Source: Cyanidioschyzon merolae
Taxonomy: Eukaryota
DNA: 64,000 bases
Assembly: GCA_000091205.1 (NCBI GenBank)
Contig: AP006502.2
Reading direction: 5' to 3' (one strand)
Shown here: positions 3,591-58,599 of the stretch, piece by piece
How positions within the stretch are numbered: position 1 is the stretch's first letter
How the letters are laid out: each line of letters begins with the position of its first letter
Translations under genes and position numbers: made by a program
Notes under the pieces: model-generated
Seen by the model: the letters and a program-made list of their open reading frames with translations, nothing else
What the model was told of the DNA's origin: nothing
The model's database searches: none

Positions 3591-5693
3591 TCAACGGCTG
3601 CTTGCCGGCCTTCGAGGCCAAAGTCGCTGCAAATGAGCTGCAGTTGTTGCCACTGTGGGAACAATTTGCTCCGGTTGAATCCAATCAATGAAGGCCCGCA
3701 ACTCCGAATACGATGAATGTTCACTGTAGGGAAGTTTGTACAGGATACATGAGTGATTGCTTGGCAACACGAGTCGCTCCAGTAGGGAACACTTGTCTGC
3801 GGGACTGCCATCGAGACGCTGGCAACCTCGTGGTGGCCTCGATGCCTGACACCACCCGGTAGCCATGACGCCGATCACCTGTCGAAATCCGAGCGACTGG
3901 GCTCGCCTCATGAACCGCAGTAAACGCATCGGTTGAACGTCCGCCATCCGCACAAGATGAACACACGAAGCCTCCACCCGCTCTGTAAGGACGTCACTAA
4001 AGCGCCAACTATCCGTTGGCAATGATCGCACACAGTCGAGCAGGACTCGACGCTTGCGTTTCCAGGAGGGATCGATGTAGACATTGGTACCCAGGGCTTT
4101 TGCTAACGACGCCCAAACGCGCTCTTTCCCGATGAAATAGGTACCACAGAGAAACAGACTGGGTGCCCGCGCTGCGTCGCGTTGTGCTGTTTCGACGAGT
4201 GCCCGCAAGACCGCCTCCTGGGGCGGGAAATCATACCGCGGATCGCTGTACGTTGTATCGATATGCAGGTATGCGACTCGTTGCACGTGATCGCCTTCAG
4301 TAGCCGCAAATCTGCGTAGAACGGGATCTCTATTCATACAGATCGGGTTGTACCGCATATCACCACAGTGAATTATAGTTTGGCCGGTTTCGAATACCTG
4401 AAAGATCAATATAACTGCACCGGGACAGTGGTTCGCGTCACAAGCCAAGACGCGAGCAACAGGTTTCGCCCCAGGCGAACCGGGACGATCGACAATGGTA
4501 ATCCCATCGGGATCACCAACTGGTAAGCGCACCAGCACTGCGTCATCGAACTGGTACTCCACTTGGAGAATGCTCACTGTAATCGGACTCGCGTACAGCC
4601 GTCGATCACATCCAGGGCGAAAGTGCGTTCGACGCAGGCCTCCATAGTGATCAGCGTGATAGTGCGTGAGAAAGAAATGATAGTAGCCGTCATTGGCCCG
4701 AATCGGGACCCGAAACGAGTCAACCACACATCCGGGTAGGCCGGCGACATGCTTGCTTGGGTGATGGCGGCTTCGAGTTCCATGCATGTTTGAAAGCTGC
4801 CGTGGGTCTGGAGTCTTTCCCGAGCCCGTCTCTATATTCACACTCCGTCTCAATGTCTTGCCAGACTCAAGGTGAGCTTCATCTGCATGGCTGCCGTCAG
4901 CGAGCCGCAGTGCCAGTGATTCCAAAGGTCGTCCTCCCGTTTCTCCGGATGTGTCCGAGATCGGAACGACGGTCGAGGCCACCATACGGCGACTGACGAG
5001 CGTTCGGGCAACAGGTTCCGCGACTCGTCGTTGAATGCCCCACTCGAAGAGCGTCTGTTGACGAGCGCTGGACGCTTCGTGGCGCACGTTTCCGGCGCTC
5101 GAGTTTTTACGCTTCTGTCCAACGCTAGGCTTTGCCTGTCTTGGAACGCGCTCTGTTCGCTGTTCAGGAGCAGGTGCCGCTGCACTGGTCCGTGAGAGCC
5201 TCTCCATAGCGTGGCTTCCAGTTTCGAGCAAGGCGGAGCCTCTCACAGGATCGTTCGTCAAACTATGACCCACGGTATCAGCGTTCTTCTGGTTATCTAA
5301 TTGTCGCGGTTTGGGACGCGCGGATAGCGCTTTTGCAACTTGCTTCTCGCTGATGTCGATCGAGCCGGCAACCGGCTTCGAGGTCACCGCTCGCTCTTCG
5401 AGAGTCCTGGATATCACCGTCTCCGGTCTGAGACTGGTTGCCAAACCCCCGCTGGTATACTGTTGTGCACTGCGCTCGACTGCTAATGTAAGGCAGCGGC
5501 GCGCTCCAAGTGCCGTTACACCAAGCGCTTGCAGTGCTTCATCGAGGCAGTTTTCCCGCCAAAGTTCGATGAGCGCTGCAAGTCGTACGCCATCGCCCTG
5601 CGAGAAGAGCGGTAAATATACCGATGCCTCGAGACCGGCATCCGCTAACCACTGCGCAGAGAGCTCTTCATCCATCAAGTCTTCGTCATCCAC
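3591..5693 (-). CDS. SNM1/PSO2/Artemis-family DNA cross-link repair nuclease (metallo-beta-lactamase plus DRMBL)
   Basis: The 700-aa ORF contains HFFLTHYHADHYGGL (MBL motif HxHxDH) followed by a DRMBL-like region (...TYFIGKERVWASLAKALGTNVYID...). Confidence 0.75.
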   Translation of the reverse strand: MDDEDLMDEELSAQWLADAGLEASVYLPLFSQGDGVRLAALIELWRENCLDEALQALGVTALGARRCLTLAVERSAQQYTSGGLATSLRPETVISRTLEERAVTSKPVAGSIDISEKQVAKALSARPKPRQLDNQKNADTVGHSLTNDPVRGSALLETGSHAMERLSRTSAAAPAPEQRTERVPRQAKPSVGQKRKNSSAGNVRHEASSARQQTLFEWGIQRRVAEPVARTLVSRRMVASTVVPISDTSGETGGRPLESLALRLADGSHADEAHLESGKTLRRSVNIETGSGKTPDPRQLSNMHGTRSRHHPSKHVAGLPGCVVDSFRVPIRANDGYYHFFLTHYHADHYGGLRRTHFRPGCDRRLYASPITVSILQVEYQFDDAVLVRLPVGDPDGITIVDRPGSPGAKPVARVLACDANHCPGAVILIFQVFETGQTIIHCGDMRYNPICMNRDPVLRRFAATEGDHVQRVAYLHIDTTYSDPRYDFPPQEAVLRALVETAQRDAARAPSLFLCGTYFIGKERVWASLAKALGTNVYIDPSWKRKRRVLLDCVRSLPTDSWRFSDVLTERVEASCVHLVRMADVQPMRLLRFMRRAQSLGFRQVIGVMATGWCQASRPPRGCQRLDGSPADKCSLLERLVLPSNHSCILYKLPYSEHSSYSELRAFIDWIQPEQIVPTVATTAAHLQRLWPRRPASSR

Positions 5694-8524: not shown

Positions 8525-10885
8525 TCATGGTGAAGCGCCTGCAATCTGTGCGAGATTCGCATGACAGTCACGCTCAGAAGGGAGTGCATCACGCTCAGAG
8601 GCAGCTGTTGCTACCTTTGACGTCAACGCATCAATCTGCCGAAACTGCCACGGCCAGCGAATATTATATAGAAAAGGCCGCAGGTCAAAGCGATTGTCTT
8701 CGGGGCTGTAATTCTCACAGTGTACACTTGGCGTAAGCACCGTCATCTTATGGCGATTCACTGAATACATTCGAAAGAAGAACTTCACCTTCTCCGCAAC
8801 TTGCGACGGCGATAAATGCGCCTTCCACAAACGACTTAGCCTTTCGTACATGGAGACGGGTCCACAGCGCCCAATTTTCCGCAAACGCCCGTATACGGTG
8901 AGTTCCGCATAGGTCATGCCCATATCGGCCTCATCCGTCTGGACATATTCGCCAGTGATGGGTTCGAGTTCGGCGGTTGGCGGCGCCTCCACGACCTGCT
9001 GGAGGGTCTCGAAACCCAGCTCGTGCACCGCCCAGAGGAGGAAACGACGTAGGTCGTGCTTGGAGATGCCTCCAATAGGATTGATATCCGCAGAACTGGC
9101 ATCGTACTTGGTGAGATATCCACGCAGGGCCTCGTCGACGTTGGCGGATCCGAGCACCAGCAGCGTTCGCTGGCCATGGCCGCGAGCCCACGGCAGCAGC
9201 TGAGCAAAGAGATAGCTTAGCACCATTCGTATCCGCGCCTGAATATTCTGGAGTGCAGCATTTTCTACCGCGCTCCCGCCTTGGACTCGAAAACGCGGTC
9301 TCTCACCCGCAACCAGCGTAAAGACGCTGAGCACTGCAGCAACGACCGCATCGATCGGCAAATCCAGATGATATGCTCCAATTTCTTTCGCCAGTTGAGC
9401 TGCGCGTTCCCGTGTGGCTCGGCTCGAGTTCTCGCTCCGCATGTAAGCTGTATGGAGAATTCGAGACGCAAACTCATGAGCGTCCCGAGGAATGTACGCA
9501 TCTGCTGCGTTCTCCGTCAATTCAGCATCCGTACCTAATCCGAGAATGCGACGCGCCTCCCTGATGACGTGATCATTCCGCTGTTGGGCCTCGACTGCTA
9601 CCAGGCGACACATGGACGCCACAATCGTTGCCGTCGCTGAGCTATCTGCACCGCCACTCAACGGGAGAAAGAAACCGCTCGCGCCACTTCTCCGCAAATA
9701 GTCCCAAAGCCAACACGCCGGTCCATACGCGATCTCCTCCTCGGCAGAGAGCAACCGTACCGGCACTGGTTGACTCGGCATGTACTGCAGCTGCTCACCG
9801 TCAGAGAGAACAAGCCGGAACGACCTCTCCGATGGGTCAACAGAAGCCGGAACAGCTCGTTGCGAAGCGTCGCCAATGAATGCTGGACTGAATGCGCATC
9901 CCGTTGGCATCCCATCGATCCGTCCAGCGATATCCTCATGCCGCAACGATACGCTACGGCCTGCAGCATCGATGCGCGGCACGGGCGCCGTCGACGCTGC
10001 CTGAACGCCACGGCTGGCGATCGCGATGCGGTACGCAGTGATCTCGTCGAGATCGATGGTTGCGGTAATCACTTCAACTTCATCAGCGATTGAGAACTGT
10101 GACGCTTGGGCAACAATCTCACCGTTGATACATATAAGTGCACATCCATCGTAGTAGAGCCGTCCACCATCGCAACCCTGCTGGTTGGCGTAGAGGTAGG
10201 CACCGCCGCCTTTAGCCGTTGCACTTCGCAACAGATCGATACGTTGGTTTAGTTTCCGCAGGTTGTGATGCGACCCACTCCCATTACCGATGATATCACA
10301 GCCATTGAGGCTGTAGCGTATATGAGGAGCGTCCGGGGTGAAGAGCTCTTCACAGGTCTCGCTGGCGACAACCACGCCGCCGATATCGAGCAACGCTTCG
10401 CCGAAGAGCGTTTCCGCTTGCGCACCAGCTGCGACTTGACGAACACAGTCTGGGAGCGGGTACTTTTCAAGTGCTCGTCTACCATTGGCCGGCCATGCTG
10501 TAAACCAGCGAGACTCTCGATAGTTCCCGTCGTCTGCTAGAGCGAGCTTGGGTCGAATCAGAAGGATCCTGCGGTTCAGGAGCAGCACACGACAGTTGTA
10601 GGCTACGTGTCGGTGGAGAACAGGTGCACCCAGGTCGACCAGGATGTCATCTGTGTAGCCTCTCGCGATGATCTCCGCAATAACCTCCCAGCTATGGACG
10701 AAAGTGTCCGGCTCCAGAAAGTGATCCTCGCACCCGTAGCCACTGACTTCTAGTTCTGGACCGAGACGGTAGCGTGCTCCAGCCTCTCTGGCCCGAGCAA
10801 TCGAGCAGCATATTCGCTCCAGGTTACCAGCAAAATCCAGTGACCACTGGTTCAGGTTACAAGTCGCCACCCGAACAAGTCGCAT
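8525..10885 (-). CDS. Glutamine-dependent NAD+ synthetase (N-terminal nitrilase/CN-hydrolase domain plus C-terminal NAD synthase domain)
   Basis: The 786-aa ORF starts MRLVRVATCNLNQWSLDFAGNLERI (CN-hydrolase). The P-loop SGGADSS is later in the same ORF, and WPWQFRQIDAL lies near the C-terminus. This is the typical eukaryotic Qns1/NADSYN1 architecture. Confidence 0.85.
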   Translation of the reverse strand: MRLVRVATCNLNQWSLDFAGNLERICCSIARAREAGARYRLGPELEVSGYGCEDHFLEPDTFVHSWEVIAEIIARGYTDDILVDLGAPVLHRHVAYNCRVLLLNRRILLIRPKLALADDGNYRESRWFTAWPANGRRALEKYPLPDCVRQVAAGAQAETLFGEALLDIGGVVVASETCEELFTPDAPHIRYSLNGCDIIGNGSGSHHNLRKLNQRIDLLRSATAKGGGAYLYANQQGCDGGRLYYDGCALICINGEIVAQASQFSIADEVEVITATIDLDEITAYRIAIASRGVQAASTAPVPRIDAAGRSVSLRHEDIAGRIDGMPTGCAFSPAFIGDASQRAVPASVDPSERSFRLVLSDGEQLQYMPSQPVPVRLLSAEEEIAYGPACWLWDYLRRSGASGFFLPLSGGADSSATATIVASMCRLVAVEAQQRNDHVIREARRILGLGTDAELTENAADAYIPRDAHEFASRILHTAYMRSENSSRATRERAAQLAKEIGAYHLDLPIDAVVAAVLSVFTLVAGERPRFRVQGGSAVENAALQNIQARIRMVLSYLFAQLLPWARGHGQRTLLVLGSANVDEALRGYLTKYDASSADINPIGGISKHDLRRFLLWAVHELGFETLQQVVEAPPTAELEPITGEYVQTDEADMGMTYAELTVYGRLRKIGRCGPVSMYERLSRLWKAHLSPSQVAEKVKFFFRMYSVNRHKMTVLTPSVHCENYSPEDNRFDLRPFLYNIRWPWQFRQIDALTSKVATAASERDALPSERDCHANLAQIAGASP

Positions 10886-12547: not shown

Positions 12548-14842
12548 TCAATAACCTTGCGGACAGGTCGCTACGAGTTCCCCAGTAAGACTGTACGCTC
12601 GTGCTTGCGTAATGCGAACATTGGCCATGCGACCTCGCCAGCGCTGGATTCCTCCAGGAGCCTCGAAGAATACTTTCTTATTCGTTCGCGTGCGTCCACA
12701 GACGCCCAATTCCGGGGATTTGGGGTTCACCTCCTCAACCAGTACCTCTTCAATCCGGCCTAAATAACGCTGACTACGAGCATCGACAATACGCATGTTC
12801 AGCTCATTGATCCGGTGCAGACGTTCCATTTTCACCGCTTCCGGCACCTGATTTTCCCAGGAGGCAGCGGGAGTAAAAGGCCGCGGTGAGTACGCTGCCG
12901 TGTTGACATTATCTAACTGTAATGCTTCCATGAGTTCAAGCGTGCGTTGAAATTGCTCCTCAGTTTCTCCGGGAAAGCCAACAATCGCATCGGCGGTGAT
13001 CGCTGCATCGGGGAGGTATTCGCGGATCATTTCGATGATCCGCCGATACCGTTTCGCAGTGTAGCCCCGTCCCATAGCCTTGAGGACCTCATCATCACCA
13101 GCCTGGAACGGAATATGGAAGTAGGGCATGATATTTGGGAGCTCTGCAGTCGCTTGGATGACGCGCGGTGACCAGTACCGCGGATGTGCAGTAATTGCAC
13201 GAATGCGATCGATGCCTGTTGCAGAGACATGACGTAAGAGCTGCGCGAAGGTGACTCGTGGGCGCATGTCCCGGCCGTAGGCATCTATATTTTGACCGAG
13301 AAGCGTCACTTCGCGATAGCCTTCATTTTTCAGCTGGACGACTTCGTTGACGATGGATTCGACGCTGCGTGATTGCTCCAGACCCCGTGTGTACGGCACG
13401 ACGCAGTACGTGCAGCGTTCATTGCAACCATAGGAGATATTTACCCAGGCACAAACCTGGGACTGCCGTCTCGGCTTGGAAATATCCTCCATGATGTGAA
13501 TCGGTTCCGTTGCGACCACTTGATTACCATTTTCAACGTCTTCGAGGAGATCAGCCAGACGGTTGGCATACTGGGGCCCCATCACCAAGTCCAGAGCGGG
13601 AATGCGGCGCAGCATCTTCACGCCTTCCTGCTGTGCAACGCAACCTGCGACGATCAATTTGAGACCTGGATTACTCTTCTCCTTCATTCGAACAAACGGT
13701 CCAAGAAAGCTGTAGACTTTTTGTTCCGCGTGATCGCGGATGGAGCAAGTATTCAGGAGTATGAGATCTGCTTCGTACGGATCTGGTGTGTGCCGGTAAC
13801 CGCATCTTTCGAGCTCGCCAGCCATTCGCTCCGAGTCCGCCAAGTTCATCTGGCAACCAAAAGTCTGCACGTTGTAGAGGCGACGCCTCGTCCTACTGTT
13901 GGGGTTCTCTCGAGCGTACAGCTGCGGCACCAGTTCCCCGCTTCGAATATACCGGGACTTGGTCGCCGTCGGCACGAGTTTGTATTCTGCGTCTTCCACT
14001 CGTACAATGTGGAAGCCGCGTTGCGTCTGCAATTTGAACACCACCCGCGGAGCACTATTGAAGCAGTAGAACTCAAGTTCGGCATCCAGCGAGCCACGAG
14101 CGTGCCAGCCGAGGTCACCTCCGTTGGCTCGCGAGCTCTCGTCCAATGAAAGCGTCCGAGCGAGTGCGTCCATGCTTGCTGCATCGGCGCTGAGTTGCTG
14201 CAGCACCAGGTCGGCCATCTGCTCCGTTGCAAGTAGAATGTGACGGACCCGAACACGATCTACAACCTCTTCCCCTACCGGAAATGCGACATTTGGATTC
14301 GGATTAATCAATGTGGAGCTTGCAAGTGTCTCGGGTGTCGCGTCCAACGCGGTGGTCGCAGGGCCAGTACCGCTGGCGTGCGGTGCCGCTGACATCCCCC
14401 AAGTACGAAACGCGCAACCTTGAGAGCGTCGCTCACAGCGTGCCCTGCGTGCGAGCACTTTTCGCGTTTCGACTGTTGCGCCGCACCAGCCGCTAGACTG
14501 GTTCAAGTGGAGCCCGCATGTGGCGCCGAACCGCGGGTTCACCGGAGAGGTAACCACCGACCACGCAATACAACGCGTCTTGTGCGGTAAGCGCATCGTT
14601 TCTGAGGGAAACCGGTGCGCTCTCCGTTGTGTCCTCTGTGCTGGGTTGTCCGTTGCGCTTCTGACGAGCATCCTTGCGACTGCAGCGCTCTTATCGGTTC
14701 GTCCGGCAAGTGCAAAACACTTGTTTCCCTGCGCTGACGCTGAATAGGTGCAGCCAGGTATCGCTCCGAGAATGATAACGATCATCTTGGGATAATCATG
14801 GCTAAAATGGTCGACACTATGGATGGCGCGCTGGGCAGCCAC
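12548..14842 (-). CDS. miaB: MiaB/CDK5RAP1-like radical-SAM tRNA methylthiotransferase with an N-terminal parvulin (PpiC) rotamase-like domain in the same ORF
   Basis: The C-terminal roughly 450 aa contain the MTTase N-domain ([20 protein letters not shown]...[14 protein letters not shown]), the radical-SAM motif [15 protein letters not shown], and a TRAM-like end. Residues about 190-290 read [17 protein letters not shown]...[33 protein letters not shown]...[12 protein letters not shown], matching the parvulin consensus (HILv...A..i...l.....F..LA...S.d.s...GGdLGw...G.m...F..a.f....G.....v.T..G.HiI.v). The true start codon is uncertain; several in-frame Ms lie upstream. Confidence 0.8.
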
Positions 14843-16284
14843 TGCGAAGCGTCAGCGCATCCCAGGTTCTCGGGATGCGAATGCGAATCCGACGAGTTGC
14901 TGGGGCAGGGCTCGTCTGCCGGAGGCAAGCACTGCACGCTCGAAGGCGAAACTTGGAGACAACCTCGGGAGAGATGATTCTGCGGGAAAAATATGGATCG
15001 TGGCTGGTGGTCTCTCCAGGCATCGTGCGGTATGATGGGCACTCTCCCGTCCACGAATCAAATCGAGTGACTAGAGACTCCGGCTCGAGGTAAACGACCC
15101 CTCCAGAAAGAATCCGCAGAAAAGATGAGATTTGAGCATCTGAAACAGGGAGGAAGAGCTTTTGCGAGATATCCGGTCAGCGCAGTCGCTTTAGAATCGC
15201 AGAAAACCCCGAGTGGTGCCTACAATAGTCGCCGCACAACTCGATCTGTATCGAGGACGTTTGTTTATCCCGGGTTCGCCGTCTCAATTCCCTGAGCAAG
15301 CGAACAGGCCACCAGATTCTCCGATGCCCAGCCGTGAAACACAGAGGCCAATTTGTGTGTCTGTCGTCTTGGAATTCGGCAGGAGCTTTCGGTCATCTGG
15401 ACAGAGGTAAGGAATCGAGCGCTGTGGTCAACCGACGGCGAAGCGTCTTGTTTGTGGGAGCACCTCTGACGCTGACCAAGACAGAAACCCGCAATGATCC
15501 GAGAATTTCCGCGACCTGGATTCGAATGCATCTTGTGACCTTCCAATGTTTCAAAGTGTCTCTCAGCACCACTTCGTCATAACCTCTCTCGAAAGAGAAG
15601 ATGTTCGATCCGGAATCCGGTGATATGCGCGGGATTCCATAGCGCTGACGTTGAACAGGGACGGTTCGCGATCGACCCAACAGGAGAGGTCGCTGCTGAA
15701 CACGATCCTACGGGGCAGGTCGCCAGTGTCTATTTGCGAGGCTAGGACCCGCGTAACGGTGGTGGTCCGAACGGTATCGACACAATAGATCTTCGCTCCT
15801 GCAGCTTGTTTCTCGACTTTTCAAGACCAGTTGAATGCGTTTACCCGCCCTGAGACCAAATATGATGCAACAGATGTAGTCGCCGGCGCTTGGATGCGAA
15901 TCGGAGACACCTCTTTCAGTGACGGTACCTGGGGTTTCCGCACCACAGAACTTCGTTCACACATAGCTTGTTTGGAGACGTTTCAAGACTGATTAAATGC
16001 GTTTACCCGCATTCAAATGCAACCGGTGACGTGTGCACTCACGTTGCCGAGACACGTTTGTTCATGAGATAGGTAAAAGTGCCGACAATTCACCGACGGA
16101 TTTCACGAACAGGAGAGCTCTCCACGTACATCTCAAGGCATGCGCAACATTCTCTCCCCAACGCAAAAAAACCCGTTGCGACTATGGACAAATCCGGCCG
16201 ATCTGAGTGCTCATCTGGCTCCGCCCTGGAACTATATCACCTATGGAGATGCAGACTCACACGGCATCTTTGCCCGAGGTGTGC

Positions 16285-16878
16285 CTAGGAGCGCTTCGAG
16301 TCCGTTGTAGCTGCTGTCGGATCGGCGGACTTGAGGCTCTTGAGCTTCATTTCTTCCTTTTGTTTCTCCTCCTTCTCCGCATCTGCTAGGCTCGTCTCAA
16401 GGCCTTCTTTGAACTCCGAGGAGGCCCGCTTCAGGTTGCCTGCGAGCGTTCCCAAGTTCCGCCCAAGCTCGCCAATTCGTGAAGGCCCCCAAATCAGCAG
16501 CCCAACACCCGCAATAACAGCTATCTCCGGCCATCCGAGCCCAAACAAGCCCATTTGCAAAGCGCTAGCTGCACTAGGTCTCGTGCAGTGGCCGGCTCGT
16601 TCGGGGAGCGCGCGCGTCTCCTGAAGCTGCCGTCGCTGCGCCGCCCTGCCACGACGTGACTCGCGAACTAGACTTGCCGCATTTTTCAAGCAAAAAGAAG
16701 AGCAAGAAACACTTTCGTGCAAGTGTTGGTTTGTCTTTGATAGCGACAGCACGAACATTGCCAGTGTGTATGTCCGAGGCACCTCGAACACCAGAGAGCA
16801 ATCCGAAGTACGCTGCGCAATGCGTTTCCAGAGAATCGATGGACGGGTCCAGCGCAGGCGAGGCACGTCCGCCAGCAC
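16285..16878 (-). CDS. tatA: Twin-arginine translocase TatA/Tha4-type subunit precursor (N-terminal extension plus TatA core)
   Basis: The core MGLFGLGWPEIAVIAGVGLLIWGPSRIGELGRNLGTLAGNLKRASSEFKEG (from about 16554) is a TatA/B signature: TM helix, hinge, amphipathic helix, acidic tail. The preceding roughly 108 residues would be a transit peptide if the ORF start at 16878 is used. Confidence 0.7.
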   Translation of the reverse strand: MLADVPRLRWTRPSILWKRIAQRTSDCSLVFEVPRTYTLAMFVLSLSKTNQHLHESVSCSSFCLKNAASLVRESRRGRAAQRRQLQETRALPERAGHCTRPSAASALQMGLFGLGWPEIAVIAGVGLLIWGPSRIGELGRNLGTLAGNLKRASSEFKEGLETSLADAEKEEKQKEEMKLKSLKSADPTAATTDSKRS

Positions 16879-18741: not shown

Positions 18742-19623
18742 ATGCCAGCGCACCATCTGAGCGCCAAATGGCGCCAAGTGAAGACGAAACGGACTCGGAA
18801 GACCCCCGCCACTGTGGCGCCGAAGAGCGTCGCCTTGCCAGAGACCGTTCGACAACGGCTCGAGCAGGCGCGGCGCGAAGCGATCGACTTTGCCGCGCTC
18901 GAGTACCTGTACGCCAGCGTACCACCTCTACGCTCTGTTATCGACGCACATCCGCCTCCGCACTTTCTTGCATGCGATGTGTTCACGGTGCTCGTCCAGG
19001 CTATTGTCTGGCAGCAGGTGAGTGCACGGGCGGCTGCTAAACTTTGGCCGAGACTCGTCGAGGTTCTCGAAACGCAGGTACCTGGATCAATCCGCCGTTC
19101 GATGCCGCATCTCTACGTGAATCCTGGTCCGTTGGCGAGCATTCCGGATCCTGCGCTTTTGCGCGCTGCCGGCATTCCGCAAAGTCGCTGTGCAGCGATC
19201 GTCGAGGCGGCTCGTGCTTTTCACGCGAAACCGGACCTCTACCATAACTGGAACGACTCCATCGAAGATGACGAAGTCGTTCGGAGACTGTGTTGCCTCC
19301 GAGGTGTTGGTGAATGGACGGCTCACATGGTGCTCATGTTCGCGATGCGTCGGATGAATGTGCTGCCCGTAGGGGATCTTGGCGTGCGACGCGGCTTTGC
19401 AGTGGTTTTCGATCTCAAGCCAGATGCCAGACGGGAACAAGGCGCTGCAGGTCGCCGTTCGGTGTTGCCGTCACCGGATGCGGTAAAGAAATTTGCCTCG
19501 AGTGCGGCATGCGGCAATGGGCGTTTTCTCACAGTTGTTTCCTATTACATGTGGCGGGCTGCGGGTGCTGATGTTCTCGTTCCCGACGGAACGCTCGTAC
19601 CAGACCTCGCTAGCACTGTCTGA
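18742..19623 (+). CDS. HhH-GPD DNA glycosylase (AlkA-like DNA-3-methyladenine glycosylase II)
   Basis: ...LRGVGEWTAHMVLMFAMRRMNVLPVGDLGVRRGF... is the helix-hairpin-helix/Gly-Pro-rich loop plus catalytic Asp region. The upstream ...FTVLVQAIVWQQVSARAAAKLWPRL matches the AlkA N-terminal HhH-GPD part. Confidence 0.7.
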   Translation: MPAHHLSAKWRQVKTKRTRKTPATVAPKSVALPETVRQRLEQARREAIDFAALEYLYASVPPLRSVIDAHPPPHFLACDVFTVLVQAIVWQQVSARAAAKLWPRLVEVLETQVPGSIRRSMPHLYVNPGPLASIPDPALLRAAGIPQSRCAAIVEAARAFHAKPDLYHNWNDSIEDDEVVRRLCCLRGVGEWTAHMVLMFAMRRMNVLPVGDLGVRRGFAVVFDLKPDARREQGAAGRRSVLPSPDAVKKFASSAACGNGRFLTVVSYYMWRAAGADVLVPDGTLVPDLASTV

Positions 19624-20378: not shown

Positions 20379-22226
20379 TTACCAGTTGTGTTTCAAAAAG
20401 TCGACTGCCCTGGTCCGCCAAGCCAACAAGTTCTGCATCCAATGAGACCAGTTTCCTGACTCTGGGCTCGCACCAGCACTGGAGAAACCATCATTTGTCG
20501 CCACATACCGAGAGTTGTGCCGAGCTGTGGTCTGCGTCCGAGCTTCCGCACGCCCTGGCTTGTCAGCGTCCGTCTTCTTCGGAAAAGTCCGCTCTGGTGT
20601 GCCCTGCGATGCGTTTCGAGGCGCACTGGGAGCCCCCTGCCGGCGATGACGATCAACTGTGGCATGCGGCCCTGCTGGGGGGCGCACCAACGACTCAGAG
20701 TTCTGCGATGTTTCGCGAAAAGTTTCGTTTGCGACTTTTTGCCTCCTTGACGTGGACATCTCCGCAACGTCAGATGCCTTTGCAAACCAGCTGCGGATGG
20801 AAAAAGGCGCAGCAGCAGGGGCAGGCGTCGTCTGTAGCGTACGACCTGCCGTGATAATTACGGACACGCGCACTGTACCCGTGAGCGACTCGTCGAACGC
20901 TGACCCGAAGATGATATTTGCATGGGGCCCAGTGCGATCCCGAATCAGTGAGGCAATCTCGTTGACCTCGTCCAAGAGGAGATCTCGACCGCCTGAAATG
21001 CTGATGAGCGCTCCACGAGCCTGTCCGAGAGAAATTCCGTCCAGCAGGGGATTGTTCAAGGCTAGCTCAATCGCTCGGCGACCCCGGTCGATTCGCGCCT
21101 GTGGCGACGATGCCGTATCCACGGAACGCTGGGGCAGAGAAGCGTTCCCATTTGCCATTGGTGCGGAGCAGCCACTCGCCTCGCCCATGCCAAACACAGC
21201 TCTGCCAGCGTTGCGGGTGATCGCATCTAGATCTGCAAAGTCCAAGTTAATAAACCCGTTGGTATACATGAGGTCGGTTACCGAGCGAATCGTCTTACAG
21301 AGCACGTCATCGGCAAGCTGAAAGGCGCTTTGCAACGTTGTTCGATTTGTTGCGAGTCGGAAAAGATTTTGATTGGGAATCGTGACTATTGTGTCCACCT
21401 GCGGCTCCAGTTCGTCGAGGCCCTGCTCTGCGAGGCGCATACGATGACGTCCTTCGAAAGCGAACGGCGTACTCACGACGGCGATTGTCAGGACACCGGC
21501 TGCTCGGGCGGCCTGGGCAATGACCGGCGCCGCGCCTGTACCGGTACCTCCACCCAGTCCCGCTGTCAAAAACAGAATATGAGCGTTCCGTATTTCTTCC
21601 ATAAGCAGGGGAAGGCAGGCGCGCGCTGCCTCGCGGCCTACGGAGGGGTTTGCGCCCGCCCCGAGCCCAGCCGTCAAGCGTTCCCCCAGGCAGAAGGTTC
21701 GGTCAGCAAGGGAGAACGAAAGCGCCTGGGCGTCGGTATTCGCCGCCAGCAGTCGCAGGCCCTGAAATGGGTCCAGATGAAGCTCTGAATTGCGATCCGC
21801 GCTGCGTTGTTGGTTCTGTTGGCGTAGAGATCGTACCAGGTTGTTAATGGTATTGCCGCCGGCGCCACCGACCCCCAGAGCAACCATACGGGGTCTCGAA
21901 AAAACTCGTAAAGATTGTCCTTCTACAGTGCAGCGTTGCTCGGTTGTTCGTAAATCATTCGCCAACTGGGTCACGGCCGGTTCAGGAGCACGACGCAGGG
22001 CCTCAGTGCACTTTGCGGGAGTGTGCACGGCTCTTATGCAAGAGCTTTCCGCCTGCGACTGCGCTTGCGATAGCATATCGCCATGCCAGCGAAAGCGCTT
22101 CCAGCAAATCAAGACACGAGCTGACCGATCGTCCCAAAGTCCCGCCGGGCACCCGTGTACCCGGGTTCTCCAGTGCTGGAACATGTCACCGCAAGAACGC
22201 GAAGTTACCAGGAACGGAATCCACAC
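20379..22226 (-). CDS. ftsZ: FtsZ (organelle division GTPase), nucleus-encoded with N- and C-terminal extensions
   Basis: MVALGVGGAGGNTINNLV (GGGxGxG start) ... ILFLTAGLGGGTGTGAAPVIAQAARAAGVLTIAVVSTPFAFEGRHRMRLAEQGLDELEPQVDTIVTIPNQNL is the canonical FtsZ tubulin-signature and T7 region. An N-terminal extension of about 115 aa precedes it. A long low-complexity C-terminal tail ends ...AVDFLKHNW. Confidence 0.85.
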   Translation of the reverse strand: MWIPFLVTSRSCGDMFQHWRTRVHGCPAGLWDDRSARVLICWKRFRWHGDMLSQAQSQAESSCIRAVHTPAKCTEALRRAPEPAVTQLANDLRTTEQRCTVEGQSLRVFSRPRMVALGVGGAGGNTINNLVRSLRQQNQQRSADRNSELHLDPFQGLRLLAANTDAQALSFSLADRTFCLGERLTAGLGAGANPSVGREAARACLPLLMEEIRNAHILFLTAGLGGGTGTGAAPVIAQAARAAGVLTIAVVSTPFAFEGRHRMRLAEQGLDELEPQVDTIVTIPNQNLFRLATNRTTLQSAFQLADDVLCKTIRSVTDLMYTNGFINLDFADLDAITRNAGRAVFGMGEASGCSAPMANGNASLPQRSVDTASSPQARIDRGRRAIELALNNPLLDGISLGQARGALISISGGRDLLLDEVNEIASLIRDRTGPHANIIFGSAFDESLTGTVRVSVIITAGRTLQTTPAPAAAPFSIRSWFAKASDVAEMSTSRRQKVANETFRETSQNSESLVRPPAGPHATVDRHRRQGAPSAPRNASQGTPERTFPKKTDADKPGRAEARTQTTARHNSRYVATNDGFSSAGASPESGNWSHWMQNLLAWRTRAVDFLKHNW

Positions 22227-53955: not shown

Positions 53956-54254
53956 GATAGATTGTATTCGTTGTGAAGCTTTTCAGACACTAAACACTCA
54001 CCAGAGGCGACTATTCACCGAACCTCCGTCGAATGGTTAGGCAGCACGAAAACTCCAAACCGGAACGCTGAAAAATGGCGCGGGATATTCGAATAGCAGA
54101 CACCTGACGCGTTTCGCCGTTCAAAAATCGAACGCCGCGGCCCGCGGTGTGCAGGAGTGGCGATCGGCGCGCCCTAGACATAACGCCTCCAACTGATGTG
54201 CAGACGCCTCCCAGCCTTTTGGACCGGCCAGCCACTACTGCTTCCAATCTTGTC

Positions 54255-56530
54255 TCATATAGTTCCACCTTGGGAGATTGTCCAACAAAGTTCCCTCTCA
54301 TATACTCTGGAGGGACTTCTTTCCATTACCGCAGATTTCCGTATCTTGATAGCGGTGTTAAAGTCTCGGTTCACAAACTCCATCCGTTTCTTGCCATCAC
54401 TGGTTGTACATACTAATGCAAGTAGCCCTCGAACTTTCGCCCTCCTTTCCATTGGCTCTTCCTTCAGCGGTCCGTACTTTGTGAAATCCTCAGGGCTCCG
54501 CTTACACTTTTCCATCTCTACGCTCTGAAGTGCGCACCTCAGTTCATGGTGTGTATACGACGCACGGAACTCGTCTATTGGTATCATAACGAAACGCCGT
54601 GCACACTCCTTGTACGTTCTTGTCGACGGAGCTGGCGTAGTTCCTTTTTCGGCGCCCAGCGCCCTGTCCCATAGGCTACAACGAGCGTCTGATTTTCATC
54701 CATCTTCAGGGCGCTCAACTGATGGAAAAAGTTCGCGAATGCACGCTGCTTCCCACAGCATAGATTCATTCGCAAACGAGCCCACCGAGGCTTGGTATAC
54801 TCCTCCTACAGTGCACCCCAATGCGCAATGCGAACTTCCATGAATTTCCGAAAAGCTTCAAAGTCCGCTCCTCGGCTAGTCACCTCGCTCAAAGCTTCCA
54901 GGATCTCTTTCATTCCTGAATTCCAAGTCTCGATTTTCTTCCTTGCATTCATTATACCCGATTCTGGGTAATATCTCGCTCTCCACAACCTCAACAGACG
55001 CATGTCTTTCTGACGTAAATTACCGTCGGTCCCATCTTCCGCACGCTTCGGTGCTGCGATGGTTATGATATTCGTGTTTCCGGGGTCCGCGCCAACGACA
55101 AAGTCGTTCTCATGCACTTTCTGCGCCGCAGGACCCGCCTTCTTGGTTTATTCATGCTTCTCCGCGTCAACGACAAGGTCGTTCTCATGCACTTTCTGCT
55201 CCGCTGGACCCGCCTTCTTGGTTTATTCATGCCCCGCCGCGCCAACGACAAGGTCGTCATCCTGCACCCCCTGCGTCGCAGAATCCTCCTCTTTGTTTTC
55301 TTCATGCTCCGCCGCATCAACGACAAGGCCGTTATCCTCCACCTCCTGCATCGCAGGACCCGCCTCCTTCTCATCTTCATGGTTCGCCGAGGGCGGAACT
55401 GGACGATCTTTCTTCAACCGCCGATAGTGTACACACTTGGCTACTCCATCGGTCTCGATCATCCCAGTGAACAACTTTTGCTTGCTCATTCTCAGACGTT
55501 TGAAATTGAAGATATTCTTCCAGTGCGTCTCCCGGTTTTCGCCGGTGAAGTTCTCCCTGCTAACAGTGAACTTCGGGCTGATCTCCTTCATGATGCCGTA
55601 GAGGACTGTGGAGTCGATAGTCACGATATGTGACTTGATGTTGCACAACGAAATGACGTTGAAGCGCTTCTCCATTAGGAAGGCCTTCCGTCTCTCCCAC
55701 TCTTCATTGTTTTCCTCACTCAGCTTCATCTCCGCATTGCATTCGAGCTCTCGATCCTAAAACACGAAATAGCGCAGGACGAGGCGATAGTATCTTCCCT
55801 TATCTTTTTTCAACTCTGATATCTTGTCTGTTGGATTCGCCAACCCCAAGATCGCGCGGTGCTCTTGCATAGCCGCACGGATTACAGAAGATTCATTCGT
55901 GCTCCTGCGTGACTTCTTCTTGTCGACGAATTCGATCTCATGTTAATGCTTGCGATCCTTCGAGATGCCATTGATAATCGCCCATATTCCTTTGCGAGAG
56001 ATGCCCGGGCAGAGTGCAAATACGGTGCGTATCATGAAACGTTCGAGGTTCATTGTGAAATGGTTCTTCAGGTTCGTGAGGTACTTCATCACTCCGTATA
56101 TGTAAATATCCCAGTAACCCTTGCATCGAGTACTGTTGAAGCTGTAAAAGGGATGATTTTCGTGGAGGCCATGGACTAGCACATTTTCCCGCCGCGCTTC
56201 CTCTGTACCAAGCATCAGCTGACGAATAAAGGTCTTATCGAAAAACTCGTCCGGAATCTCGACCGTTTCCATGTGCATCACATCGCGATACATCTCCCTC
56301 GCCAAATGCATCAGTCCTGACGACGCCTTGACAATACTCTTGGATTACGAGTCGACACGTTTTTCGATAGCGTCTCGCAACTTTTCCTTACACGGATCCT
56401 TGATATGTCCAAGAAGAAAGGTTTTTACCACCTTTTCGTCGTACAGTTGTCGTCCTTGCCGCTTACGACGTAGGGCCTCCCCCTTTGGGTTCTCCTTCTC
56501 TTCCTTTTCTTCTGGACTCAGCACTGTTTT
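54255..56530 (-). mobile_element. Copy A of a TnpB/Fanzor-like (RuvC-fold, OrfB_IS605-type) element; ORF fragmented by frameshifts and carrying an internal 75-bp minisatellite
   Basis: The minus-strand ORF pieces 55943-56311, 55223-55729, 54806-55117, 54584-54775 and 54255-54587 are collinear with the plus-strand ORFs of copy B (62750 onward). They contain ...[21 protein letters not shown] (RuvC-I-like D in a GxDxGxxN context) ... LVVAYGTGRW ... ALVCTTSDGKKRMEFVNRDFNTAIKI. The last segment matches a degenerate zinc finger plus the RuvC-III motif RDxNAAxNI of TnpB/Fanzor. Reading 56312-56530 on the minus strand gives a further coding-like N-terminal stretch that is absent from copy B. Confidence 0.5.
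55085..55390. repeat. 75-bp minisatellite (about 4 tandem units) embedded in copy A of the TnpB/Fanzor-like ORF
   Basis: Unit ...caacgacaa(a/g)gtcgttctcatgcactttctgc(g/t)ccgc(a/t)ggacccgccttcttggtttattcatgc... has a period of 75 bp (the motif caacgacaa recurs at 55094, 55169, 55244 and 55319). It encodes an acidic 25-aa repeat (..[26 protein letters not shown]..) that is absent from copy B at the corresponding position. Confidence 0.8.
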
Positions 56531-58599
56531 TTGTTTTTTTTTCTAGCAGCCGGCGACCCTGGGCCTCCAGGATCGTGGACTTGCTTTTTTCATAACTTTG
56601 TTTTTTTGTTTTTTTTTGAAAAACAACGCTCTTTGAACCCTTCTGTTATATATTTCGAAAAAACACTTGACTAGACTTGTTTGAAGTTCTAAACAAAAAT
56701 CAACTGAAAGACTATACTTGGCTACGACCTGAACGGAAATCTGACGTTTACAGCTGAACAACACGCTGCTGGTCAGGATCGCGTTTAACTTCAACGGCGG
56801 CATCCGCGTCGCGTCTCCTGCCTGGCTGAATCTCCCAGGTGCGCAAATCGACAGCACTATTTAGAACAAAGAAAAGAGATTCACGACCAAAAAGCAAGGA
56901 TATAACGGATTCTTTCGTCCTCTACGATAAACGATAAAACAGGGAAAAGTTTTCCGTACTGTCGCAAGTCCTCCTTCCAGGCGGAAAGTTCCGCGAGCCT
57001 GACGAGTCTCCCAGACTCGTGCTTCGTGCTCCCCCCAATGGCAGGTCTTGAAGCGAGACCTCGGCAACTCGTCTGGAATGCAGTTTATTCCAAGATCGCG
57101 AGTGGCTGGAGTGCGTCTGGTCGTCGCCCTGATCGTCGTTTTCTTCCAGCAAATTGCATGGCTCCGTTGCAGGCAGCAAGTCTGTCTGCGCAGTTGCCAA
57201 ACTCCCAGGAGAATGATGAATCCCAGGCCCCGTGTCGGCTGAACCACACCTCGAGCCGATGCCCCCAGTGATATGACAAAGTTATTCTGTTCCCGTGCTG
57301 AATCCGGACCAGCAGTATAGGCTCTGTTGCTGCAGGCGCTCGGGGCAGGCGCTCGGCACACCATAGAACCTACGAAACGACCATCGCATCCGAGAGAAAG
57401 CATGGATAATGGAGCTTAAAGGTAGGGTGGAACATGATAGACACTCTTTCGATCACCAATATCCATCCCGCAATCTAGGAGCCGTGGTCCATGAAAACAT
57501 TCTGGAAAACACAGCGATCTGTGGATTTGAGATTTGCGCATACACTGCCGCGGATACCTTGACGCGTCGCCACGGCGATCGATCGGAACATAGAAAGCAC
57601 AGGTGCCGAAAAGTATCACAAATTGGAAAGGGAACCATTTTCAATCGTTCAAGATTGACCAAGAGAACGACTTGTTGTCGAGTGTTGTCCTTCTTTTTAG
57701 TGGCTACACAGCTGTCGCGGAACCGATAAATCAAGAGGATGCAGCCAAAACCCTCAACGAACGCAGATGCGGTAGCCCAACTGTCTGAGAGCTCCGAATC
57801 ATCGATAGCCGGGCATGATGGACGGCGTGAGGCGTACGATCGAGTAGGATGGCGAGGTCAGGACCCGTCTCGATGCTTTGGGTTCCTTTCCGATGAATGA
57901 GGACATTTTCTGCGCCTTATTTCGAGCGAATATTAGCGTCCAACTAGCGAAATCGGACAATCTCCGGCTGGAGTGCATGACATCGTGCACGGGACGCCAA
58001 CGGTATCCGCAGTGCAGAGACAACAAGCGTGGATTCAAGTGTCTGCTCAATATGTAGGAAATAGAAATGACGAACATGTCGTGTCGTTTGGTCGAGGCCC
58101 GTGGCTCTGGAGGTGCTGCAACGCGCTGAACCTGCACTTTTGCTCCGTCGACCAGCGCGCACAAAGTGTGCAGGAACTGAATCTTTCCATCTCCCATCGA
58201 TGCAATCCAGACGATTTGAGCGCATCACGAGCACAAGGGCACGTTGAGCGTGCTAGACGACAACAGCAACATCGTGAAGCAATGACGAATGCACCAGATG
58301 ATGGAAAGTTAGTTGACCATCCGTTTATGGCGAGGCAGTCGAGGGCAAGAGACTTGCGATGATATGACTCTCCGCGCAACAGTACGCGCCATGACTCGAT
58401 GCGTCGTGACTGGAAGGCTCCCATCACGAGCGAGGGATGTCTCGTGCTTCCCGGGCGGACGTCCGTCGGCTCGGTATCCAGCGAGCTTTCGCAGGAATCG
58501 TTTCGTACCAAGCGTGTGCGTTGTGCTGCGATGCGGAAGACTTGCGCTCACGAAATCAGTGCCTGGGAGAGGGTCATAGATTCCCGTCTGGCTCAAGGC

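What the first reader, a model, noticed from the sequence alone, without database searches (positions are those of the whole stretch)
12548..14842. Parvulin (PpiC)-MiaB methylthiotransferase fusion ORF
One continuous 764-aa ORF encodes a parvulin-type peptidyl-prolyl isomerase-like domain (HILLATEQ...[12 protein letters not shown]...GFHIVRVE) directly N-terminal to a complete MiaB/CDK5RAP1-type radical-SAM enzyme (MTTase-[13 protein letters not shown]). This is not the usual MiaB domain architecture. It might be a genuine fusion, or a targeting/regulatory domain for an organellar tRNA-modification enzyme.
Basis: partly seen in the sequence, partly recalled or inferred. Interest (0 to 1): 0.55.

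Follow-up and report, generated by a model that had tools for sequence, protein, structure and literature searches.

The report
Conserved parvulin–MiaB fusion in red-lineage algae
This is a real, already annotated nuclear gene of the red alga Cyanidioschyzon merolae in which a prolyl-isomerase (parvulin) domain is joined to a complete, cyanobacterium-derived tRNA-modifying enzyme (MiaB); red algae and algae with red-type plastids share the fusion, but I found no paper describing it and the role of the extra domain is unknown.

Summary
The ORF at 12548..14842 (-) carries a significant parvulin domain (Pfam Rotamase_3, aa 193-284, E=1.3e-12). It sits in front of a complete MiaB: UPF0004, Radical_SAM and TRAM domains, with TIGR01574 at 437 bits against a cutoff of 355.

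From Met58 the ORF is 100% identical to C. merolae 10D XP_005539454.1, annotated '2-methylthioadenine synthetase'. The 764-aa length is a table-11 artefact; the real start is probably Met58 or Met83.

The fusion is genuine and old. The same architecture occurs in Cyanidiococcus, Cyanidium, Galdieria, Rhodosorus, Vitrella, brown algae and Chrysoparadoxa, and in MMETSP transcripts. The MiaB half is 59-65% identical to cyanobacterial MiaB. None of 83 cyanobacterial miaB loci has a parvulin gene nearby, so the fusion arose in the eukaryote.

The parvulin domain is the bacterial PrsA/PpiC type (model against 6xd8: TM 0.92). It keeps the His/Asp/Thr/His tetrad and is under purifying selection (73% identity within Cyanidiales against 12% for the presequence).

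Most likely this is a plastid-targeted MiaB carrying a tethered PPIase/chaperone module. The module's client is inferred, not shown. It is a database-visible variant for which I found no published description, of moderate interest.

The parts
12548..14842 (-). Full open frame (764 codons from a GTG, plus the stop at 12548-12550). An in-frame TGA lies at 14852-14854.
12548..14671 (-). CDS as annotated in C. merolae 10D (XP_005539454.1/BAM83418.1, 707 aa, starting at Met58). Alternative ATGs are Met83 (14594-14596, used by JGI gene calls, 682 aa), Met20 (14783-14785) and Met150 (14393-14395).
   Evidence: P0130 is 100% identical to ORF aa 58-764.
14303..14671 (-). N-terminal presequence (aa 58-180), a presumed plastid transit peptide. 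From Met83 it has 12 K/R against 4 D/E and 21 S/T. It is unconserved and predicted to be disordered.
   Evidence: 12% identity among Cyanidiales for aa 150-180; pLDDT 30-43 for aa 150-188.
13955..14302 (-). Mature N-terminal module (aa 181-296). It has three parts: the Cyanidiales-conserved [12 protein letters not shown] motif, the parvulin (PpiC-type PPIase) domain (Pfam Rotamase_3, aa 193-284 = 13991-14266), and a family-conserved C-terminal 'VED....L' extension. The tetrad is H201, D234, T273, H278.
13877..13954 (-). Flexible linker (aa 297-322), variable in length and sequence among orthologues.
   Evidence: alignment; pLDDT ~54; 43% identity within Cyanidiales, 12% in other lineages.
13577..13873 (-). 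MTTase N-terminal domain (UPF0004, aa 324-422), with the auxiliary [4Fe-4S] ligands C330, C366 and C401.
12932..13444 (-). Radical SAM core (aa 467-637), with CNERCTYC (C473, C477, C480).
12572..12772 (-). TRAM RNA-binding domain (aa 691-757).

Best explanation
SHOWN
- This is one intron-less nuclear gene of Cyanidioschyzon merolae 10D.
- In order, it encodes a poorly conserved basic presequence, a bacterial-type (PrsA/PpiC-like) parvulin domain with an intact active-site tetrad, a ~25-35 aa flexible linker, and a complete MiaB with all six cluster-ligand cysteines.
- The same architecture is conserved across red algae and algae with red-derived plastids.
- The MiaB half is cyanobacterial in affinity.
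- Cyanobacteria have neither the fusion nor a parvulin gene next to miaB.

INFERRED
- The protein is imported into the plastid, where the MiaB module converts i6A37 to ms2i6A37 on plastid tRNAs that read UNN codons.
- The fusion arose once in the nucleus of an early red alga, after endosymbiotic gene transfer, and spread with secondary red plastids.

MECHANISM I COMMIT TO FOR THE EXTRA DOMAIN (inferred, about 35-40% of the weight)
The parvulin domain acts as a tethered PPIase/holdase working in cis. It assists folding and maturation of the two-cluster radical-SAM module, or of its immediate protein partners, after import. It is not an independent enzyme that merely happens to be attached.
For: Identity and architecture
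- Domain calls are all above the curated cutoffs.
- The window is 100% identical to XP_005539454.1 from Met58.
- The AF2 model has pLDDT 83.6 and pTM 0.79. Its MiaB part matches B. uniformis MiaB 7mjw (TMt 0.93, 38% identity). Its parvulin part matches PrsA 6xd8 (TMt 0.92, rmsd 1.2 A).
- C330/C366/C401 and C473/C477/C480 are invariant in 35 sequences.

Conservation of the fusion
- Fused orthologues occur in Cyanidiococcus, Cyanidium, Galdieria, Rhodosorus, Vitrella, Scytosiphon, Pylaiella, Cladosiphon, Nemacystus and Chrysoparadoxa, and in MMETSP transcripts.
- Identity within Cyanidiales is 73% for the parvulin domain, against 12% for the presequence and 43% for the linker.
- Across 23 fused proteins the tetrad is conserved as His 21/23, Cys/Asp 23/23, Thr/Ser 23/23 and His 20/23.
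- Family-specific invariant positions (W246, D284, L289) set the fused domains apart. They score 97-140 bits against the family profile, whereas free parvulins score 92 or less.

Origin
- The MiaB half is 59-65% identical to cyanobacterial MiaB, and the 80 best bacterial loci are all cyanobacterial or unclassified 'uncultured bacterium' MAGs.
- There is no parvulin domain within 3-5 kb of miaB in 83 cyanobacterial loci.
- Huang & Gogarten (PMC2530860) already assigned one plant-lineage miaB copy to plastid-derived gene transfer.

Single protein
- There is no Met between aa 224 and Met332, and Met332 lies after Cys330.

Lead for a PPIase link
- E. coli MiaB co-purifies with the PPIase PpiB in a way that depends on PpiB's active site (PMC7353009).
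Against: - No localisation, transcript-start or activity data for C. merolae were available here, and no targeting predictor was run.
- Both Galdieria orthologues have lost both tetrad histidines (Q and L), and Chrysoparadoxa has lost the second. Whatever function is universal may therefore not need catalysis.
- Cyanobacterial and other MiaBs work without any parvulin, so a cis-foldase is not intrinsically required.
- The linker is predicted to be flexible, and I could not inspect the model coordinates or PAE for domain docking.
- Distribution in green algae, glaucophytes, cryptophytes, haptophytes and apicomplexans was not determined.
Confidence: 0.8

Rival explanations
1. The parvulin domain is an independent, trans-acting plastid PPIase with many clients. 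In this reading the fusion only secures co-expression and co-import with MiaB, and there is no mechanistic coupling.
For: - The active-site tetrad is intact in most lineages.
- The linker is long, variable and predicted to be flexible.
- Stand-alone small parvulins with plastid-like presequences exist in algae (P0274).
- Plants carry another parvulin fusion, parvulin-rhodanese of the AtPin3 type (PMC9797600).
Against: - The fusion has been kept without fission across red algae, ochrophytes and chromerids.
- The fused domains form a distinct, specialised subfamily with their own invariant residues.
- Galdieria keeps the domain although both histidines are lost.
Confidence: 0.25
2. The parvulin domain is mainly a non-catalytic binding module. 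It would dock MiaB to the plastid ribosome, to tRNA or rRNA, or to a sulfur/Fe-S donor, by analogy with human Par14/Par17 in pre-rRNA processing.
For: - Loss of the histidines in Galdieria and Chrysoparadoxa, with the fold-defining and family-specific residues retained.
- Brown algae tolerate a ~50-aa insertion inside the domain.
Against: - The tetrad is conserved in 20-23 of 23 sequences.
- The domain is much closer to the bacterial foldases PrsA/SurA/PpiD (E = 5e-8 to 1e-5) than to Par14 (E ~ 1e-3).
- MiaB already has a TRAM RNA-binding domain.
- A specific tie to the parvulin-rhodanese proteins was not reciprocal.
Confidence: 0.15
3. The fusion is an artefact. It would be two adjacent genes (or an internal start) merged by a chance open frame, or an assembly or annotation error.
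For: The frame was called with the bacterial code from a GTG, and the N-terminal ~180 aa are unconserved.
Against: - The same architecture occurs in more than 25 independent sequences from several phyla, including transcripts.
- There is no usable ATG for a separate MiaB.
- The parvulin domain is under clear purifying selection.
- The window is identical to the finished C. merolae 10D sequence.
Confidence: 0.02
4. The protein is mitochondrial or dual-targeted rather than plastid-targeted.
For: A basic, hydroxylated presequence is also compatible with mitochondrial import. No predictor or experiment was available.
Against: - The MiaB half has cyanobacterial affinity.
- All named organisms carrying the fusion have red or red-derived plastids.
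- Orthologues in complex-plastid algae start with a hydrophobic signal-like segment followed by an aromatic residue. Examples are P0055 ...LCHG/F and P0020 ...AAAAA/Y (read by eye) and P0018 ...HLHA/F.
- Eukaryotes have a separate CDK5RAP1-type copy (PMC2530860).
Confidence: 0.06

Closest known systems
Bacterial/cyanobacterial MiaB (tRNA-i6A37 methylthiotransferase; TIGR01574; structures 7MJV-7MJZ)
   Same: - UPF0004 + Radical_SAM + TRAM architecture.
- All six cluster cysteines.
- 59-65% identity to cyanobacterial MiaB.
- Model TM 0.89-0.93 to B. uniformis MiaB.
   Different: - It carries a ~320-aa N-terminal extension (presequence + parvulin + linker) that is absent from the ~450-aa cyanobacterial proteins in the top 120 hits and from the 83 cyanobacterial loci examined.
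- It shares a 7-aa loop deletion after 'GRD' and the motif NTCSIRDH instead of NTCTIRDN.
Bacterial parvulins of the PrsA / PpiC(Par10) / SurA / PpiD type
   Same: - Best sequence matches are in this group (6xd8 E=5.5e-8, 1zk6, 4wo7).
- Same fold (TMt 0.92, rmsd 1.2 A).
- GGDLGW and TQxGxHI motifs and an Asp-type tetrad.
   Different: - It has no SurA_N or PrsA chaperone arms. Instead it is fused to a radical-SAM enzyme.
- It has its own conserved 'VED....L' tail.
- It is stromal rather than extracytoplasmic (inferred).
Pin1/Ess1 and Par14 (eukaryotic parvulins)
   Same: Parvulin fold and the His/Cys-Asp/Thr/His tetrad.
   Different: - The matches are much weaker (E ~ 1e-3).
- There is no WW domain.
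- By sequence inspection there is no long basic phosphate-binding loop between beta1 and alpha1. It is therefore not expected to be phospho-Ser/Thr-Pro specific.
NifM (parvulin-like accessory protein needed to mature the [4Fe-4S] nitrogenase Fe protein) - recalled from the literature, not tested here
   Same: It is a parvulin-type module functionally dedicated to one Fe-S enzyme, which is the closest precedent for the cis-chaperone hypothesis.
   Different: NifM is a separate polypeptide with a different client. No sequence comparison was made here.
AtPin3-type parvulin-rhodanese proteins of plants and algae (PMC9797600; P0327/P0328)
   Same: This is another parvulin fused to a sulfur-chemistry domain in photosynthetic eukaryotes. 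These were the best-scoring free parvulins against the fused-family profile (92 bits).
   Different: The relationship is not reciprocal: the P0327 parvulin domain is closer to bacterial parvulins than to any MiaB-fused domain. The domain order and the partner also differ.

Membership tests
MiaB (tRNA (i6A37-C2)-methylthiotransferase) | Scores above the curated cutoff of the MiaB equivalog model and better than the RimO and MtaB models. | tested here: met
   TIGR01574 scores 437.3 bits against a cutoff of 355.3. RimO (307 against 357) and MtaB (300 against 357) fall below their cutoffs.
MiaB (tRNA (i6A37-C2)-methylthiotransferase) | Three-domain architecture: UPF0004 (MTTase-N) + Radical_SAM + TRAM. 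| tested here: met
   The fold matches 7mjw with TMt 0.93.
MiaB (tRNA (i6A37-C2)-methylthiotransferase) | Three Cys for the auxiliary [4Fe-4S] cluster, plus CxxxCxxC for the radical-SAM cluster. | tested here: met
   C330, C366 and C401, and C473, C477 and C480, are invariant in 35 aligned sequences.
MiaB (tRNA (i6A37-C2)-methylthiotransferase) | Forms ms2i6A37 on i6A-bearing tRNAs, with MiaA present in the same compartment. | not testable with these tools
   This needs nucleoside LC-MS of plastid tRNA, or complementation of E. coli miaB.
Parvulin (PpiC-type PPIase; PF00639/PF13616) | Profile match above the gathering score. | tested here: met
   Rotamase_3 scores 48.7 bits (GA 22.5) and Rotamase 46.6 bits (GA 21.7).
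Parvulin (PpiC-type PPIase; PF00639/PF13616) | Parvulin fold. | tested here: met
   In the AF2 model the domain has pLDDT 80-97. Foldseek matches 6xd8 (TMt 0.92, rmsd 1.2 A over 94 residues) and Par14 3ui4 (TMt 0.72).
Parvulin (PpiC-type PPIase; PF00639/PF13616) | Active-site tetrad His / Cys-or-Asp / Thr-or-Ser / His. | tested here: met
   H201, D234, T273 and H278 are placed by alignment with Par10, PrsA and Pin1. The tetrad is lost in the two Galdieria orthologues.
Parvulin (PpiC-type PPIase; PF00639/PF13616) | Measurable prolyl cis/trans isomerase activity. | not testable with these tools
   This needs a protease-coupled or NMR exchange assay on aa 181-296.
Pin1-type phospho-specific parvulins | A WW domain and/or a basic phosphate-binding loop between beta1 and alpha1. 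| tested here: not met
   No WW hit was found. The beta1-alpha1 connection is short, as in Par10 and PrsA. The Pin1/Ess1 match is only E = 2.6e-3, against 5.5e-8 for PrsA.
Nuclear-encoded plastid-targeted protein of endosymbiotic origin | Cyanobacterial phylogenetic affinity of the catalytic part. | tested here: met
   The best non-algal hits are all cyanobacterial or unclassified 'uncultured bacterium' MAGs, at 59-65% identity. This is consistent with PMC2530860. No formal tree was built.
Nuclear-encoded plastid-targeted protein of endosymbiotic origin | A cleavable N-terminal transit peptide and plastid localisation. | tested here: inconclusive
   The presequence is basic, rich in S/T/A, unconserved and predicted to be disordered. 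Orthologues in complex-plastid algae show signal-peptide-like starts (by eye). No predictor and no experiment were available.

The most novel reading that the evidence does not exclude
The parvulin domain may be a dedicated maturation factor for the radical-SAM methylthiotransferase. It could isomerise a specific prolyl bond or hold the apo-enzyme for insertion of its two [4Fe-4S] clusters, as NifM does for NifH. The fusion would then be a 'Rosetta stone' revealing a general PPIase dependence of MiaB-type enzymes. In bacteria that dependence would be served in trans, as hinted by the co-purification of E. coli MiaB with PpiB (PMC7353009).
Probability: 0.2. Interest if true: 0.6.

Novelty: new variant of a known kind. 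Interest (0 to 1): 0.38.

Why it matters
MiaB and parvulins are each well understood, but I found no published link between them. Full-text searches for parvulin + MiaB, parvulin + methylthiotransferase, and methylthiotransferase + peptidyl-prolyl + fusion + plastid gave no paper on this architecture.

A fusion kept across red algae and the lineages that inherited red plastids argues for a real functional coupling. That gives a concrete, testable hypothesis: a PPIase/chaperone helps a two-cluster radical-SAM tRNA-modifying enzyme in plastids.

It also provides a derived character, together with a loop deletion in the MiaB half, for tracing red-plastid-derived genes. C. merolae is genetically tractable, so deleting the domain is feasible.

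The practical impact is modest. The gene is already annotated, and its domain composition is visible in protein databases.

Tried and rejected
1. Word-indexed search with the parvulin domain alone found only two bacterial parvulins and missed even the self hit. It was uninformative.
2. The exhaustive representative search with the same domain was dominated by bacterial proteins with several parvulin domains. Only one of the 150 listed hits (P0190, a fragment of a red-alga-like fusion) also contains MiaB. No bacterial fusion was seen, but this is weak evidence because only 150 hits are listed.
3. A profile of 23 fused parvulin domains returned only proteins under 280 aa, and the best were exon or fragment calls of fused genes. 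It gave no new taxa.
4. I tested whether the domain is specifically related to the plant/algal parvulin-rhodanese (AtPin3-type) proteins. It ranked top among free parvulins (92 bits), but the reverse search was not reciprocal, so I rejected this.
5. I tested whether the fusion descends from a cyanobacterial parvulin-miaB gene pair. There was no parvulin within 3-5 kb of miaB in 83 loci, so I rejected this.
6. A fused-clade-specific invariant proline (P528) looked like a candidate PPIase target. It turned out to be part of a 7-aa loop deletion that is also present in one ~450-aa cyanobacterial-type MiaB from the hit list (P0025), so I did not pursue it.
8. The afdb50 fold library, which I wanted for listing the taxa that share the architecture, was unavailable.
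9. Cluster look-ups of ten unnamed fused proteins gave no organism names.
Full report
**1. Observation**

The window holds one uninterrupted frame at 12548..14842 on the minus strand. Pfam finds five domain matches:

- Rotamase_3, aa 193-284, E=1.3e-12, 48.7 bits (gathering score 22.5).
- Rotamase, aa 205-284.
- UPF0004, aa 324-422.
- Radical_SAM, aa 467-637.
- TRAM, aa 691-757.

NCBIfam places the C-terminal 440 aa in the MiaB equivalog TIGR01574 (437 bits, cutoff 355). RimO and MtaB score below their cutoffs.

The length of 764 aa is an artefact of calling a GTG start with the bacterial code. The in-frame ATGs are Met20, Met58, Met83 and Met150.

**2. Identity of the locus**

From Met58 to the stop, the ORF is 100% identical to Cyanidioschyzon merolae 10D XP_005539454.1/BAM83418.1, annotated '2-methylthioadenine synthetase' (707 aa).

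The neighbours are unrelated single genes typical of a compact eukaryotic nuclear genome:

- NAD synthase, 8525-10885 (-).
- A TatA/Hcf106-family protein, 16285-16878 (-).
- An SNM1-like DRMBL protein, 3591-5693 (-).
- An HhH-GPD glycosylase, 18742-19623 (+).
- FtsZ, 20379-22226 (-).

The ORFs on the opposite strand within the gene have no support and are treated as shadows of the coding frame.

**3. The fusion is genuine and conserved**

A database search with the whole protein returned full-length proteins carrying both PF00639/PF13616 and the MiaB domains. The named sources are:

- Cyanidiophyceae: Cyanidiococcus yangmingshanensis, Cyanidium caldarium, Galdieria partita and G. phlegrea.
- Another red alga: Rhodosorus marinus.
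- The chromerid Vitrella brassicaformis.
- Brown algae: Scytosiphon, Pylaiella, Cladosiphon and Nemacystus.
- Chrysoparadoxa.
- Several MMETSP transcripts marked 'complete'.
- Tribonema has a truncated model that still ends with the last parvulin strand.

Within the C. merolae gene there is no Met between aa 224 and Met332. Met332 lies two residues after the auxiliary-cluster ligand Cys330. An internally initiated, stand-alone MiaB would therefore be defective and untargeted.

**4. Anatomy**

*Presequence.* An alignment of four Cyanidiales shows that conservation begins abruptly at [12 protein letters not shown] (aa ~180). Everything upstream is unconserved: 12% identity for aa 150-180. From Met83 it is basic (12 K/R against 4 D/E) and rich in S/T/A. 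AlphaFold2 predicts aa 150-188 to be disordered. This is the signature of a transit peptide, although no predictor was run.

*Parvulin domain.* In the model the domain has pLDDT 80-97. Its structural matches are PrsA 6xd8 (TMt 0.92, rmsd 1.2 A) and Par14 3ui4 (TMt 0.72). By sequence it is closest to the bacterial foldases PrsA, SurA and PpiD (E = 5e-8 to 1e-5), and far from Par14 and Pin1/Ess1 (E ~ 1e-3). It lacks the long Pin1 phosphate-binding loop.

*Active site.* Alignment with Par10, PrsA and Pin1 places the tetrad at H201, D234, T273 and H278. Conservation across 23 fused proteins is shown below.

| Tetrad position | Conserved in |
|---|---|
| First His | 21/23 |
| Cys or Asp | 23/23 |
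| Thr or Ser | 23/23 |
| Second His | 20/23 |

The two Galdieria proteins have lost both histidines, and Chrysoparadoxa has lost the second.

*Family-specific features.* These are an invariant Trp after GGxxG, an invariant Asp in a 'VED....L' tail, and, in brown algae, a ~50-aa insertion.

*Linker.* The linker (aa ~297-322) varies in length and is modelled with low confidence (pLDDT ~54).

*MiaB half.* It has all six cluster cysteines invariant and superposes on B. uniformis MiaB (TMt 0.89-0.93).

**5. Selection**

Identity of C. merolae to the other three Cyanidiales, by region:

| Region | Identity |
|---|---|
| Presequence | 12% |
| Parvulin domain | 73% |
| Linker | 43% |
| MiaB domains | 82-89% |

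The parvulin domain is therefore under clear purifying selection, though it evolves faster than MiaB (34% against ~60% identity to the more distant fused orthologues).

**6. Origin**

The MiaB half is 59-65% identical to cyanobacterial MiaB. All 80 best loci among 185,579 prokaryotic species genomes are cyanobacterial or unclassified 'uncultured bacterium' MAGs, and they match only the MiaB part of the query. This agrees with Huang & Gogarten 2008, who assigned one plant-lineage miaB copy to gene transfer from the plastid (PMC2530860).

A six-frame scan of 83 cyanobacterial miaB loci (3-5 kb flanks) found nothing. The profile used scores free, mostly bacterial, parvulins at 60-90 bits, so it should have detected one. 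The fusion was therefore not inherited as a gene pair. It arose in the eukaryotic nucleus, presumably once, before red algae diversified, and moved with secondary red plastids.

The donor of the parvulin domain is unresolved. The apparent affinity to AtPin3-type parvulin-rhodanese proteins was not reciprocal.

**7. How it most likely works**

*Shown:* the architecture, the intact catalytic residues in both halves, the conservation, and the cyanobacterial affinity.

*Inferred:* import into the plastid, where the MiaB module methylthiolates i6A37 of plastid tRNAs that read UNN codons. This is the established MiaB function, as summarised for the apicoplast enzyme in PMC8844926.

For the parvulin domain I favour a tethered PPIase/holdase that helps the two-cluster radical-SAM module, or its partners, fold and mature after import. 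Three observations support this:
- Long-term retention without fission.
- A specialised subfamily signature.
- The report that E. coli MiaB co-purifies with PpiB, and less so with a PpiB active-site mutant (PMC7353009).

Three observations count against it:
- Bacterial MiaBs need no such domain.
- The linker looks flexible.
- Galdieria has lost the histidines.

The rivals are an independent trans-acting stromal PPIase (0.25), a non-catalytic docking or RNA-binding module (0.15), mitochondrial targeting (0.06) and an artefact (0.02).

**8. Comparison with what is known, and novelty**

Each half is a clear member of a known family (see the membership table). The combination is visible in databases: Pfam domain strings show it, and UniRef auto-names several orthologues 'Peptidylprolyl isomerase'. 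Full-text searches found no paper describing or testing it.

I class it as a new variant of a known kind, of moderate interest. It is a conserved 'Rosetta-stone' link between a PPIase and a radical-SAM tRNA-modifying enzyme, testable in a tractable alga, but not a new kind of system.

**9. Limits**

- The afdb50 library was unavailable.
- Model coordinates and PAE could not be inspected.
- Distribution in green algae, glaucophytes, haptophytes, cryptophytes and apicomplexans remains untested.
- So do the transcript start, the localisation and both enzymatic activities in C. merolae.

Noticed in passing
window 16285-16878 (-): A 197-codon frame has a TatA/Hcf106-family domain in its C-terminal half (PF02416, aa 114-162, E=1.6e-11), preceded by a long N-terminal extension. 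It may be a plastid Tha4/TatA homologue with a transit peptide.
   Followed up: partly
window 20379-22226 (-): An FtsZ homologue (Tubulin/FtsZ GTPase domain + FtsZ_C) with a ~110-aa N-terminal extension. It is presumably one of the organelle-division FtsZ genes of C. merolae.
   Followed up: partly
window 54001-58000: Base composition shifts here. GC drops to 0.49-0.51 from ~0.56 elsewhere, with GC skew -0.19 and AT skew -0.15 in 54-56 kb. I did not examine this.
   Followed up: no
MiaB half, ORF aa 526-530 (window ~13253-13267) and aa 364-371: All 28 fused algal MiaBs lack a 7-aa loop ('PGxTxxG') that most cyanobacterial MiaBs have after 'GRD'. They also read NTCSIRDH instead of NTCTIRDN next to cluster ligand C366. 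One ~450-aa cyanobacterial-type protein (P0025) shares the short loop, which may be a marker for the plastid-donor lineage.
   Followed up: partly
Orthologues P0015 and P0019 (Galdieria) and P0055 (Chrysoparadoxa); brown algae P0016, P0017 and P0009: Galdieria parvulin domains have lost both tetrad histidines (Q and L), and Chrysoparadoxa has lost the second. Brown-algal domains carry a ~50-aa low-complexity insertion between the GGxxGW motif and the following helix.
   Followed up: partly
P0014 (Galdieria phlegrea gene model, 819 aa): This fused protein is additionally listed with a Ribosomal_S7 domain (PF00177). It is probably a gene-model merge with a neighbouring gene rather than a triple fusion.
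   Followed up: no
window 8525-10885 (-), 3591-5693 (-), 18742-19623 (+): Ordinary neighbouring genes: a glutamine-dependent NAD synthase (CN_hydrolase + NAD_synthase), an SNM1/DRMBL DNA-repair nuclease and an HhH-GPD glycosylase.
   Followed up: partly
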